The position numbers are program-made. DNA of 64,000 nucleotides from Escherichia coli (GTDB lineage: Bacteria > Pseudomonadota > Gammaproteobacteria > Enterobacterales > Enterobacteriaceae). This document shows, one piece after another, positions 57,001-64,000 of this stretch (its first letter is position 1; every line of letters begins with the position of its first letter). The stretch is taken from assembly GCF_045037415.1 (NCBI RefSeq), contig NZ_CP173440.1; one strand, 5' to 3'.

Positions 57001-60000
57001 AAAGTCTCTGGAAAGTGATTGACCCGCCTTCTGATGCACCATTCTACAAGAAGAGTATCGACCACCAGAGTGTCTGTCGGTCAGGTATTCATATTGCCGG
57101 AGCAAGCCGTCGTGGACGCTCCCATGAACATGTAGGCTCTTTTCGTGACGACGATTATTACCTCAACTTCAGTGATGTATCCGGATGGAGTGTATTACTG
57201 GTAGCTGATGGCGCGGGGAGCGCTAAATATTCCCGGGAAGGCTCCCGTATCGTTTCTGAAACTGTTGGTAACTATCTCTTCAACCAGTTCAAGACTGAAA
57301 AAGGTCTTGAGATCAAAAACAGGGTCCTTCGCTGGAACAGTGAGGATCAGCGAGCAGTATGGGAGTTTATGAACCACCACTTCCGACAGGCAGCGGTACT
57401 GGCCGTAAACAATATCAGCAGTGCCGCAATTTTGGCTGAAGATAAAGTAAAGTCATTCTCAACGACTTTACTCGCGACCGTCACTTTTCGCGACGGTGCT
57501 GATCTTTTTGCCGCGTCTTTCTGGTTAGGTGACGGTGCGATAGCTGCATATGGACCTGCTGGCAAAGTCAGAGTGCTTGGGACTCCGGATAGCGGAGAGT
57601 ATGCAGGTCAGACGCGTTTTCTGGATGCCGATGCCGTCAGTGATGCCGGATTCAGTAAACGTATCAGTATCGGTAAGTGGAACGACATATCGCATCTGGT
57701 TCTGATGACGGATGGTGTTTCCGATCCCTGGTTTGAAACGGATAACGGGCTTCAGAATCCACAAAAATGGGACAGGCTGATGGCCGAGCTCTCTCCCCTA
57801 CTCACAGACCCTGAACATGCCTCGGCACAACTGGTGGAGTGGCTTAACTTTTTCTCTCCGGGAAATCACGATGATCGCACAATCATTGTGCTCTGGTGAA
57901 ATTAATGCGATAGCAGGTGGCTATTCATGGCAAATATAATTACATGCAAAACTAAGGATGGAAAAACCATTCAGTATGTCGATGAAGTCATCGGCTCTGG
58001 CTCAATGAAAGACGTTTATTTTTCTCCGGATAAATCATATGTCGTAGCCTTCTACCATAAACCTCAGAATGAACAGGCCCGGGAACGTATCAACATGATC
58101 ACCGGGAGGTACCGGCAGAATATTTTTGAGCAGACTGGTGGAGATTACTGGAAAGGTCTCTTCTGCTGGCCCACTGATGTGGTTGAGCACGCTGATAAGG
58201 TGGGTATTGTTGTACCTGCTTACCAGCAGCATTTCTTCTTCCGATATGGTTCCAAAAACAATGATTTCCTCGGGATCAAAGGACGTGAAAAGGAAGGGAA
58301 ATGGTTTGCCAGCGCGAACAATCAGAATAAATTTCTGGATCCGCGTGAACGTGGCAATACGCTTAACTATCTGAAGGTCTGCATCCTTCTAACGCGTGCA
58401 GTCAGACGAATGCATGCTGCGGGCCTGTGTCATAGTGACCTGAGTTATAAAAATGTGCTGATAGATCCGGAACTAGGCCACGCATGCATTATTGATGTTG
58501 ATGGGCTGGTGGTTCCGGGAAAATTTCCTCCAGACGTGGTTGGTACACCTGATTTTATTGCCCCGGAAGTGGTGAAGACAAGCCATCTCCCCAAAGACGA
58601 TCCCCGCCGCGTATTGCCGAGTATCGCTACCGACCGGCATGCACTTTCGGTACTCATTTACATGTATCTTCTTTTCCGGCATCCGTTACGGGGAGGAAAA
58701 ATTCACGATATCGATGATGAGGTCAGGGATGAGGCGCTTTCCATGGGAGAGCGGGCACTTTTTATCGAACACCCGACTGACAGAAGCAATGCAGTTAAAG
58801 TTAATCAGGTTCTCATCGTTTTCGCTCCCGTGGGCAGATCCTCAGAAAATCCCGTACACCATTATGGGGCCCTACCTGAAACCTCTCTTCGACCGGGCTT
58901 TTATTGATGGGTTGCATGATCCGTCGAAGCGCCCTACAGCCGATGAATGGGAGAGCGCCCTGGTAAAAACCGTCGATCTCATCCAGCCATGCCAGAACAA
59001 GGATTGTGACCAGAAATGGTACGTTTTCAATGGAAAGACGAAACCCGTTTGTCCCTATTGCGGTACACCCTACAAAGGCAAACTCCCCATCCTGAATCTG
59101 TATTCGTCGAGAAAAGCTGGAACTTTCAGGCCAGATGATCACCGGCTTATGGTGTGGAGCGGTCAGTCATTATATGCATGGCACGTCAACCGACTGATTG
59201 CTCCTAACGAACGAACCACCGATGAGCAGAAGAAAAGGGTTGGTTATTTCGTCTTCCATAATGACCAGTGGTGGCTGGTTAACGAGGGGCTTAGCGGGCT
59301 CATATCACTTCCCGATCGGAAAACGGTCGGCATTGGTGAAAAGTTGCTGCTGGAGGATAACACCCAGTTCATCCTGTCTTCAGAGGATGGCGGGCGATTG
59401 GTGGTGGTTCAGCTTTTGAATAATTAGCTATATTACTGGCCATTGATATCATAACGTCAATATGAGCCCACCATTAGGTGGGCCATAATTATCACAGTCG
59501 AAACGCAACATCTCAATACTATCCCTTTGAGCCTGGAAGATGGTTCGGCGGGACAGGTTATCCACAAACATTGAAGAAAGAGTGTCTCACATTCAGTAAG
59601 AGTAACTTTCACAAATCGCCCCACTAGGGAAACACCACAGTCAGGACAGAAGTCCGGAAACGCCTATTTTTTTCATCAGCTAATTATGTAGCCCCTTCTG
59701 TTCTACTCTTTCCCGGAATGTTCCGGTCCGGAACAGTGTCTGCCGGTAATGCGCCAGAAAAAAATGTATCCCTGTATAACCTGGAAGCCCATGTGTTTCA
59801 GGGGAGCCCGCAGAATTCGGAAAAAATCGTACGCTAAGGTTTTCCGGGCATCCGTAAGGGCCGAAACTTCCCGTCTTCCAGTCTGCGGCTCTGCCGCCAG
59901 ACGTAATCGCCGGTTAGGTTGATGTGCTCCCAGCCCAGCGGCGACAGGAATTGCAGCAGCTCGCCGTCCACCGGCTTGCCGGCCTCGACCAACCCCTGGG

Positions 60001-63000: not shown

Positions 63001-64000
63001 GAGTGAATGTCGATCACTCCACGATTTACCGCTGGGTTCAGCGTTATGCGCCTGAAATGGAAAAACGGCTGCGCTGGTACTGGCGTAACCCTTCCGATCT
63101 TTGCCCGTGGCACATGGATGAAACCTACGTGAAGGTCAATGGCCGCTGGGCGTATCTGTACCGGGCCGTCGACAGCCGGGGCCGCACTGTCGATTTTTAT
63201 CTCTCCTCCCGTCGTAACAGCAAAGCTGCATACCGGTTTCTGGGTAAAATCCTCAACAACGTGAAGAAGTGGCAGATCCCGCGATTCATCAACACGGATA
63301 AAGCGCCCGCCTATGGTCGCGCGCTTGCTCTGCTCAAACGCGAAGGCCGGTGCCCGTCTGACGTTGAACACCGACAGATTAAGTACCGGAACAACGTGAT
63401 TGAATGCGATCATGGCAAACTGAAACGGATAATCGGCGCCACGCTGGGATTTAAATCCATGAAGACGGCTTACGCCACCATCAAAGGTATTGAGGTGATG
63501 CGTGCACTACGCAAAGGCCAGGCCTCAGCATTTTATTATGGTGATCCCCTGGGCGAAATGCGCCTGGTAAGCAGAGTTTTTGAAATGTAAGGCCTTTGAA
63601 TAAGACAAAAGGCTGCCTCATCGCTAACTTTGCAACAGTGCCCTGCACTGAACGTCAGAAGCCGACTGCACTATAGCAGCGGAGGGGTTGGATCCATCAG
63701 GCAACGACGGGCTGCTGCCGGCCATCAGCGGACGCAGGGAGGACTTTCCGCAACCGGCCGTTCGATGCGGCACCGATGGCCTTCGCGCAGGGGTAGTGAA
63801 TCCGCCAGGATTGACTTGCGCTGCCCTACCTCTCACTAGTGAGGGGCGGCAGCGCATCAAGCGGTGAGCGCACTCCGGCACCGCCAACTTTCAGCACATG
63901 CGTGTAAATCATCGTCGTAGAGACGTCGGAATGGCCGAGCAGATCCTGCACGGTTCGAATGTCGTAACCGCTGCGGAGCAAGGCCGTCGCGAACGAGTGG

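What the first reader, a model, noticed from the sequence alone, without database searches (positions are those of the whole stretch)
59801..64000. Resistance-type mobile elements (Tn21/Tn1696-family end, IS26, class 1 integron) joined to a virulence-plasmid backbone
A Tn21-subgroup 38-bp IR and complete 988-aa tnpA are followed, where tnpR/res/tnpM would be expected, by a complete 820-bp IS26 whose right end abuts a truncated integron IRi and the 3' end of intI1. The rest of the window carries aerobactin, rmpA2 and ter virulence-plasmid markers. This suggests a hybrid virulence-resistance plasmid, with IS26 having deleted the resolution module.
Basis: partly seen in the sequence, partly recalled or inferred. 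Interest (0 to 1): 0.5.

Follow-up and report, generated by a model that had tools for sequence, protein, structure and literature searches.

The report
Tn1722 remnant, IS26 and integron junction
The end of the window is the left edge of a well-known multidrug-resistance island, made of a decayed Tn1721/Tn1722 transposon, an intact IS26 and a class 1 integron, which sits in a Klebsiella pneumoniae plasmid that also carries virulence genes; it matters medically but is already described.

Summary

The transposon is named imprecisely. It is Tn1721/Tn1722 (labelled "TnAs1 family" by NCBI's annotation pipeline), not Tn21 or Tn1696. The arm is 100% identical to the Tn1721 copy on pFBAOT6. In the near-identical plasmid pKP96_virNDM5 the far end is an IS26-cut mcp gene, then the partner IR, then the 5-bp duplication TTTCA.

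Window 1-63642 is 99.98% or more identical to that published IncFIB/IncHI1B resistance-virulence plasmid, so the "hybrid plasmid" reading is supported and already known.

IS26 does stand where tnpR and res belong; only 19 nt of tnpR remain. The integron, however, was not native to this transposon. Two plasmids with the same tnpR/IS26 junction keep a foreign resolvase/res fragment beside a complete IRi. The IS26/truncated-IRi junction was followed by dfrA5 in all three plasmids inspected, on three different plasmid types.

No PLSDB plasmid has both IS26 junctions on one IS26. About 30 sister plasmids carry the same 10.8-kb IS26-bounded segment inverted. The window is therefore a flip isomer, or less likely a repeat mis-join.

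The parts
59796..59800 (.). TTTCA, the left copy of the 5-bp target-site duplication made by the Tn1722-type insertion
   Evidence: The empty site in pKP64477b reads CATGTGTTTCA|TGGCTTTTCA. In pKP96_virNDM5, TTTCA flanks both terminal repeats.
59801..59838 (+). 38-bp terminal inverted repeat at the tnpA end of Tn1721/Tn1722
   Evidence: Exact match and the only copy in the window. The same repeat sits next to the same tnpA in L001, L002, L005, L006 and L011.
59834..62800 (-). Complete tnpA, a 988-aa Tn3-family DDE transposase
   Evidence: NF033527, 1289 bits, profile positions 2-954 of 954. The DNA is 100% identical to the Tn1721 copy on pFBAOT6 and to the gene annotated WP_001138014.1 in pKP96_virNDM5.
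62804..62822 (-). Last 19 nt of tnpR (16 coding nt plus TGA); the rest of tnpR and the res region are missing
   Evidence: Alignment to intact tnpA-tnpR in pOZ172 (L005) and pFBAOT6 (L011). The breakpoint lies after L011 position 8523.
62823..63642 (+). Intact IS26 (820 bp; tnp26 at 62886-63590). Its flanks are TGCGGAGG and CTGCACTG, so there is no 8-bp duplication.
   Evidence: It is 100% identical to the IS26 copies in L001, L002 and L004.
63643..63648 (+). Last 6 nt of the 25-bp integron repeat IRi; the first 19 nt are missing
   Evidence: Comparison with the complete IRi in L001, L004 and L006.
63649..63825 (.). Non-coding part of the class 1 integron 5'-conserved segment, between IRi and the end of intI1
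   Evidence: Window 63643-64000 is 100% identical to L001 19501-19858 and L004 5258-5615.
63826..64000 (-). 3' end of intI1 (stop codon plus 57 codons); the gene continues past the window end
   Evidence: NF011946 positions 281-337 of 337, E = 2.8e-30. The translation ends ...LPPLTSER*.
57927..59427 (+). Backbone kinase gene (TerY-associated) just left of the insertion. In the window it is split by an extra T at 58811.
   Evidence: pKP96_virNDM5 has a single 1500-bp gene here (WP_058842874.1). The only difference over 19.2 kb is GGTCTC becoming GGTTCTC.

Best explanation
Positions 59801-64000 are the left edge of the resistance island of an IncFIB/IncHI1B resistance-virulence plasmid of Klebsiella pneumoniae.

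**What is shown**
- A Tn1721/Tn1722-type transposon inserted once at TTTCA, between the TerY-associated kinase gene and a hypothetical gene of the backbone.
- Its interior was later replaced by IS26-bounded resistance DNA. In the window only IR, tnpA and 19 nt of tnpR survive.
- In the near-identical pKP96_virNDM5, the far end is an mcp gene lacking its first 60 nt, then the partner IR, then TTTCA. There, 911 bp of Tn1722 are gone: 542 nt of tnpR, the 309-bp res region and 60 nt of mcp.
- The IS26 has different 8-bp flanks. It is therefore a recombination or deletion endpoint, not a simple insertion.

**What is inferred**
- To the right of IS26 lies a mobile module: IS26, truncated IRi, intI1, dfrA5, qacEdelta1, sul1, IS4321, chrA, padR, IS6100, mphR, mrx, mph(A), IS26.
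- Its truncated IRi end was probably made by IS26 adjacent deletions that ate through a foreign resolvase/res context.
- In about 30 sister plasmids the same 10.8-kb segment lies the other way round between two inverted IS26 copies. The window is most likely the flip isomer, produced by homologous recombination between those copies.

**Functional consequences (from general knowledge of these families, not tested here)**
- The Tn1722 remnant has an intact transposase but one IR and no resolution system, so it is essentially immobile.
- The integron lacks a usable IRi, so Tni-type proteins cannot move it.
- Further movement and rearrangement of the resistance genes therefore depends on the intact IS26.
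For: - **Features.**
- **Tn1722 identity.**
  - The arm 59801-62822 is 100% identical to pFBAOT6, where it continues tnpR, res, mcp, IR.
  - Published Tn1721/Tn1722 structure: PMC7319535.
  - TnAs1 is described as a Tn1722 variant sharing the tnpA-tnpR half: PMC5756416.
  - Partner IR and TTTCA duplication in pKP96_virNDM5, and the empty site in pKP64477b.
- **Known plasmid.**
  - Window 1-45784 and 44399-63643 match pKP96_virNDM5 at 99.98% and 99.995%.
  - The backbone/IR junction occurs in 55 PLSDB plasmids, all Klebsiella.
  - The family is described in PMC8265623.
- **Junction census.**
  - The tnpR/IS26 junction occurs in 117 plasmids of Klebsiella, E. coli and Salmonella.
  - The IS26/truncated-IRi junction occurs in 54 plasmids. 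dfrA5 followed it in all three inspected.
- **Foreign flank.** pKP96_virNDM5 and pEc42 keep a different resolvase 5' end, its res region and a complete IRi to the right of the same IS26. Matches to that flank start at query positions 1, 19, 23 and 38, which looks like progressive deletion. IS26 was confirmed at the breakpoint only for positions 1 and 19.
- **Inversion.**
  - In L002 the truncated-IRi junction is on the opposite strand, on a second, inverted IS26.
  - The 8-bp flanks are exact reverse complements: CTGCACTG/CAGTGCAG between the window and L002, and TTCAATCC/GGATTGAA between L001 and L002.
  - The 10,811-bp segment is 100% identical but inverted between L001 and L002.
Against: - The window stops 358 bp past IS26. 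The second IS26, the cassette array and the mcp-IR end are predictions from relatives, not observations.
- No PLSDB record carries both IS26 junctions on one IS26. The arrangement therefore has no independent confirmation and could be an assembly choice at a repeat.
- The order of events cannot be fixed from these data. The window could lie between the pKP96 form and the common form, or it could be a re-inversion of the common form.
Confidence: 0.85

Rival explanations
1. Assembly artefact. The assembler took the wrong path through one of two inverted IS26 copies. The true molecule would then have the common arrangement, tnpA-IS26-mph(A)...intI1-truncated IRi-IS26.
For: None of about 280 plasmids sharing the backbone-tnpA-IS26 stretch continues into intI1 in one piece. 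About 30 sister plasmids show the other orientation. The two orientations differ only by the path taken through an 820-bp exact repeat.
Against: The differences from pKP96_virNDM5 cluster at GGTCTC sites and in homopolymers. I read that pattern as typical of long-read data, and such reads easily span 820 bp. pKP96_virNDM5 independently has the same orientation of the segment. Inversion between inverted IS26 copies is an expected real event.
Confidence: 0.1
2. A Tn1696/Tn21-like transposon carried the integron in its own res site. A single IS26 adjacent deletion then removed tnpR, res and 19 nt of IRi.
For: The orientation tnpA(-), [tnpR, res], IRi, intI1(-) is what I recall for such an ancestor. 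IS26 lies exactly at the gap and has no target duplication.
Against: The transposon is Tn1722, with mcp and no mer at the far end. Two plasmids with the same left IS26 junction have a different resolvase/res fragment beside a full IRi. The truncated-IRi junction was followed by dfrA5 on all three plasmids inspected, of three different types.
Confidence: 0.04
3. The integron module arrived directly as an IS26 translocatable unit, inserted next to the IS26 already present in tnpR. The window orientation would then be primary and not derived by inversion.
For: The two IS26 junctions have separate distributions, 117 and 54 plasmids. From my own knowledge, IS26 is reported to insert preferentially next to another IS26 (Harmer, Moran and Hall 2014, recalled, not checked here).
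Against: A translocatable-unit insertion gives directly repeated IS26 copies. In the relatives the segment is bounded by inverted copies. The flank pairs fit a clean flip.
Confidence: 0.1

Closest known systems
pKP96_virNDM5 (NZ_CP138475.1), an IncFIB/IncHI1B plasmid of K. pneumoniae ST6796
   Same: It is collinear with window 1-63642 at 99.98% identity or more. It has the same backbone/IR junction, the same tnpA, the same tnpR/IS26 junction and the same orientation of the integron.
   Different: It keeps 257 bp between IS26 and the window's integron sequence: 48 nt of a foreign resolvase gene, its res region and the first 19 nt of IRi, which the window lacks.
phvKpST147_NDM1_1659, pKpvST383L, pKpvST147B_virulence, p51015_NDM_1 and pEBSI036-1-NDM-VIR (hybrid plasmids described in PMC8265623)
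   Same: They share the same Tn1722 insertion site, the same tnpA-IS26 stretch and the same IS26/truncated-IRi junction. In phvKpST147_NDM1_1659, the one examined in detail, the 10.8-kb dfrA5...mph(A) segment is 100% identical to that of pKP96_virNDM5.
   Different: The segment between the two inverted IS26 copies is in the opposite orientation, so mph(A), not intI1, follows the first IS26.
Tn1721/Tn1722 (for example on pFBAOT6, NC_006143.1); NCBI's annotation pipeline labels it 'TnAs1 family'
   Same: The IR, tnpA and the tnpR 3' end are 100% identical. The partner IR and mcp are present in the sister plasmid, with a 5-bp duplication.
   Different: tnpR, res and the start of mcp are replaced by IS26-bounded resistance DNA. 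The window holds only one IR. No tet(A) module was seen.
Tn1696 / Tn21
   Same: From my own knowledge they belong to the same Tn21 subgroup of the Tn3 family, with 38-bp IRs, tnpA and tnpR in the same direction, and class 1 integrons often found in their res regions.
   Different: The exact Tn21 IR sequence I recalled is absent from the window. There is no mer module at the far end in the sister plasmid. tnpM is not expected. Only a distant Tn3-family tnpA fragment (81.6% identity) turned up, in L004.
IS26-bounded resistance segments (pseudo-compound transposons and IS26 adjacent deletions)
   Same: The IS26 is intact and lacks a target duplication. Relatives show breakpoints at several different positions in the DNA to its right.
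   Different: Nothing new. This is textbook IS26 behaviour, stated here from general knowledge.

Membership tests
Tn3 family, Tn1721/Tn1722 lineage | 38-bp terminal inverted repeat next to the 3' end of tnpA | tested here: met
   Exact IR at 59801-59838, overlapping the tnpA stop region. Identical to the IR of the pFBAOT6 Tn1721 copy.
Tn3 family, Tn1721/Tn1722 lineage | Full-length DDE transposase TnpA | tested here: met
   988 aa; NF033527, 1289 bits against a cut-off of 500. DNA 100% identical to the pFBAOT6 copy.
Tn3 family, Tn1721/Tn1722 lineage | Resolvase gene tnpR and res site | tested here: not met
   Only 19 nt of tnpR remain, at 62804-62822, and IS26 follows. This is a remnant, not a functional transposon.
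Tn3 family, Tn1721/Tn1722 lineage | Second inverted IR, an mcp gene and a 5-bp target duplication | tested here: inconclusive
   Not in the window. Present in the 99.98%-identical pKP96_virNDM5 as truncated mcp, IR and TTTCA, with an empty site in pKP64477b.
Tn1696 / Tn21 | mer module and an integron inserted in the transposon's own res or tnpM region | tested here: not met
   The far end in the sister plasmid is mcp, not mer. The flank beside a full IRi in two plasmids with the same tnpR/IS26 junction is a different, low-GC resolvase/res region.
IS26 (IS6 family) | 820-bp element with 14-bp perfect terminal repeats and a 234-aa transposase | tested here: met
   62823-63642; NF033587, 276 bits against a cut-off of 125.
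IS26 (IS6 family) | 8-bp target-site duplication of a simple insertion | tested here: not met
   The flanks are TGCGGAGG and CTGCACTG. This fits deletion or recombination, not a fresh insertion.
Class 1 integron | 25-bp IRi, intI1, attI1 and gene cassettes | tested here: inconclusive
   Six of the 25 nt of IRi and the last 57 codons of intI1 are present and 100% identical to reference copies. attI1 and the cassettes lie beyond the window. All three plasmids inspected with this junction carry dfrA5.
IncFIB/IncHI1B hybrid resistance-virulence plasmid of K. pneumoniae | Near-identity to described members, with iuc, rmpA2 and resistance DNA on one molecule | tested here: met
   99.98% identity or more over 63.6 kb to pKP96_virNDM5. 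iuc/iutA, ter and rmpA2 were located. Replicon genes are outside the window and were not tested.

The most novel reading that the evidence does not exclude
The window records a real and previously undeposited flip isomer of the IS26-bounded dfrA5...mph(A) segment. It may be the structural intermediate between the pKP96_virNDM5 form (full IRi) and the widespread ST147/ST383 form (truncated IRi, inverted). That would document ongoing IS26-mediated inversion inside these convergent plasmids.
Probability: 0.6. Interest if true: 0.15.

Novelty: already known. Interest (0 to 1): 0.12.

Why it matters
Plasmids that combine aerobactin and rmpA2 virulence genes with multidrug or carbapenem resistance in high-risk Klebsiella clones are a real public-health problem. 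Recognising one is useful for surveillance.

Scientifically there is nothing new here. The plasmid family, the truncated TnAs1 plus IS26 left boundary and the dfrA5/mph(A) module are published (PMC8265623) and are present in dozens of database records.

The practical results are three. The transposon is named correctly as Tn1722, not Tn1696. The 10.8 kb beyond the window end can be predicted. The frameshifts in this assembly are probably sequencing artefacts.

Tried and rejected
- **Tn1696/Tn21 identity.** Rejected. The recalled Tn21 IR is absent, the sister plasmid ends in mcp plus IR, and the arm is 100% identical to Tn1721 on pFBAOT6.
- **Shigella plasmid L004 as an "intact tnpR-res-IRi" reference.** Its resolvase turned out to be a different, low-GC gene that ends ...YRYTTKS and is not adjacent to Tn1722 tnpA. 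It was still useful, because it exposed the foreign flank. I could not name that flank. NCBIfam gave only weak recombinase hits, and PMC7319535 did not identify it.
- **Search for any PLSDB plasmid with both IS26 junctions on one IS26.** Two query designs (4.6 kb and 300+820+300 bp) found none in one piece. The best hits have 239-257 extra bp. The first 400-bp junction query was uninformative because joined pieces swamped the ranking. 80-bp junction queries with a limit of E <= 1e-20 solved this.
- **NCBIfam for the rmpA2 ORF.** No family matched. The identification rests on my recollection of the rmpA2 N-terminus and poly-G tract, and on its position in an unannotated gap of pKP96_virNDM5.
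- **Search across IS26 in the larger contig collections.** Not possible, because patterns are limited to 600 bases.
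Full report
**1. Observation**

- The 38-bp repeat GGGGAGCCCGCAGAATTCGGAAAAAATCGTACGCTAAG is at 59801-59838. It is unique in the window even allowing 10 mismatches.
- tnpA occupies 59834-62800 on the minus strand (988 aa). It matches the NCBIfam Tn3-transposase model over its full length (1289 bits, cut-off 500).
- IS26 is exactly 820 bp (62823-63642), with perfect 14-bp ends and a 234-aa transposase.
- The six bases after IS26, CTGCAC, are the end of the 25-bp integron repeat IRi. From there to 64000 the sequence is 100% identical to the class 1 integron 5'-conserved segment in several plasmids. 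It ends in the last 57 codons of intI1.
- Between the tnpA start and IS26 only 22 nt remain. Nineteen of them are the 3' end of tnpR.

**2. Which transposon**

- NCBI's annotation pipeline labels this tnpA "TnAs1 family". TnAs1 is described as a variant of Tn1722 that shares the transposase-resolvase half (PMC5756416).
- The published Tn1721/Tn1722 layout is IR, mcp, res, tnpR, tnpA, IR (PMC7319535).
- The window arm 59801-62822 is 100% identical to the copy on Aeromonas plasmid pFBAOT6. There it continues into tnpR, a 309-bp res region, an mcp gene and the partner IR.
- In pKP96_virNDM5, which matches window 1-63642 at 99.98% identity or more, the resistance island ends with an IS26-truncated mcp, the IR GGGGGAACCGCAGAATTCGGAAAAAATCGTACGCTAAG and TTTCA. 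TTTCA also precedes the left IR in the window.
- pKP64477b has the uninterrupted site CATGTGTTTCA|TGGCTTTTCA.

So one Tn1722-type transposition into this backbone is documented by a 5-bp duplication. In pKP96_virNDM5, 911 bp of its interior are replaced: 542 nt of tnpR, the res region and 60 nt of mcp. No mer module is involved, which excludes Tn1696 and Tn21.

**3. Plasmid context**

- The window is collinear with the annotated IncFIB/IncHI1B conjugative plasmid pKP96_virNDM5. iucABCD-iutA, the two ter clusters, the PP2C phosphatase and the kinase all lie where the mapping predicts.
- A truncated rmpA2-like ORF with a poly-G tract is at 18187-18567.
- The backbone/IR junction occurs in 55 PLSDB plasmids, all Klebsiella.
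- The family (pKpvST383L, pKpvST147B_virulence, p51015_NDM_1, pEBSI036-1-NDM-VIR) and its "truncated TnAs1 plus IS26 upstream of mph(A)" boundary are described in PMC8265623.
- The 600 bp left of the insertion are 100% identical to the IncFIB/IncHI1B plasmid pKP64477b, which has the empty site. They are 98.7% identical to the IncFIB plasmid p11311-1. I did not check either plasmid for virulence genes, so this bears only loosely on whether the island sits in virulence-plasmid-type sequence.

**4. What IS26 did**

IS26 has different 8-bp flanks, TGCGGAGG and CTGCACTG. It therefore marks a rearrangement endpoint rather than a simple insertion.

- **Separate histories.** The left junction (tnpR/IS26) is in 117 plasmids of Klebsiella, E. 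coli and Salmonella. The right junction (IS26/truncated IRi) is in 54 plasmids. In all three plasmids I inspected, of three different types, it is followed by the dfrA5 cassette.
- **Foreign flank.** In pKP96_virNDM5 and in E. coli pEc42, the IS26 with the same left junction is followed by the 5' end of a different, low-GC resolvase gene, its presumed res region and a complete IRi.
- **Nested breakpoints.** Matches to that flank across plasmids start at query positions 1, 19, 23 and 38. The window's junction lies 257 bp further in. This series looks like successive IS26 adjacent deletions. IS26 was confirmed at the breakpoint only for positions 1 (pKP96_virNDM5) and 19 (pEc42).

The integron was therefore embedded in another element's res region before IS26 brought it next to the Tn1722 remnant.

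**5. Orientation**

- No PLSDB record has both junctions on one IS26.
- In about 30 sister plasmids the truncated-IRi junction lies 11-16 kb away on the opposite strand, on a second, inverted IS26.
- The 8-bp flanks are exact reverse complements: CTGCACTG/CAGTGCAG between the window and phvKpST147_NDM1_1659, and TTCAATCC/GGATTGAA between pKP96_virNDM5 and phvKpST147_NDM1_1659.
- The 10,811-bp segment between the IS26 copies is 100% identical but inverted between pKP96_virNDM5 and phvKpST147_NDM1_1659.

The window is thus the flip isomer of the common form. The most likely cause is homologous recombination between inverted IS26 copies; this is an inference. The alternative is an assembler choosing the other path through the repeat, which cannot be tested here.

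**6. Evidence bearing on the assembly**

The window differs from pKP96_virNDM5 at only about nine events in 63.6 kb.

- Five fall on GGTCTC/GAGACC sites, which cover 0.13% of the sequence (14 sites in the reference, 9 kept in the window).
- Two more are in C-homopolymers.

I read this pattern as typical of nanopore basecalling at a methylated motif. If so, long reads were used, and they would span an 820-bp IS26. That makes a repeat mis-join less likely. It also means the frameshifts in the kinase gene (58811) and the P-loop NTPase gene (24724), and the rmpA2 tract length, should not be trusted.

**7. Function**

These points rest on general knowledge of the families and were not tested.

- The Tn1722 remnant keeps an intact transposase but has one IR in view and no resolvase or res, so it is not a working transposon.
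- The integron has lost 19 of the 25 nt of IRi, so Tni proteins cannot transpose it.
- IS26 is intact and is the active agent for further deletion, inversion and transfer of the resistance module.

**8. Verdict**

The structure is already known, apart from a trivial and unverified inversion isomer. Interest is low.

Noticed in passing
window 6159-6160, 10121, 24724, 32019, 58811: Five of about nine differences from pKP96_virNDM5 fall exactly on GGTCTC/GAGACC sites, changed to GGTTCC, GGTTTC, GGTTCTC (twice) and GA-ACC. The reference has 14 such sites and the window keeps 9. This looks like nanopore basecalling error at a methylated BsaI/Eco31I-type motif, which would imply a matching methyltransferase in the host strain.
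   Followed up: partly
window 57927-59427 (indel at 58811): The TerY-associated kinase gene next to the insertion is split into two overlapping ORFs by one extra T. pKP96_virNDM5 and pKP64477b have an intact 1500-bp gene. This is probably an artefact of the GGTCTC effect rather than a real pseudogene.
   Followed up: partly
window 24206-26432 (indel at 24724): The P-loop NTPase gene, 2226 bp in pKP96_virNDM5, is split into ORFs of 175 and 624 aa by an extra T at another GGTCTC site.
   Followed up: partly
window 18187-18567 (-), tract at about 18281: An rmpA2-like ORF is truncated at its poly-G tract. The window has 11 C where pKP96_virNDM5 has 12, so the reading-frame status of rmpA2 cannot be trusted in this assembly. 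No NCBIfam model matched the ORF.
   Followed up: partly
window 32345-35305 (+): There is a second, unrelated full-length Tn3-family transposase (986 aa; NF033527, 1026 bits) inside the virulence region, between the aerobactin and ter clusters. I did not look for its ends or cargo.
   Followed up: no
L001 19244-19500; L004 4479-5263; L006 5121-5359: A low-GC serine-recombinase gene (189 aa, MKIGYARKSTHLQ...) and its upstream region sit directly beside a complete IRi. One search found at least 80% of this 297-bp flank in 1,744 PLSDB plasmids. Matches start at positions 1, 19, 23 and 38, consistent with progressive IS26 truncation; IS26 was confirmed at the breakpoint only for positions 1 and 19. 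I did not identify the parent element.
   Followed up: partly
L005 (pOZ172) 5553-9511: In this plasmid an intact Tn1722 tnpA-tnpR is followed by a Tn402-like tniA/B/Q module inserted in the res region. This is an independent example of a res-targeting insertion in the same transposon.
   Followed up: no
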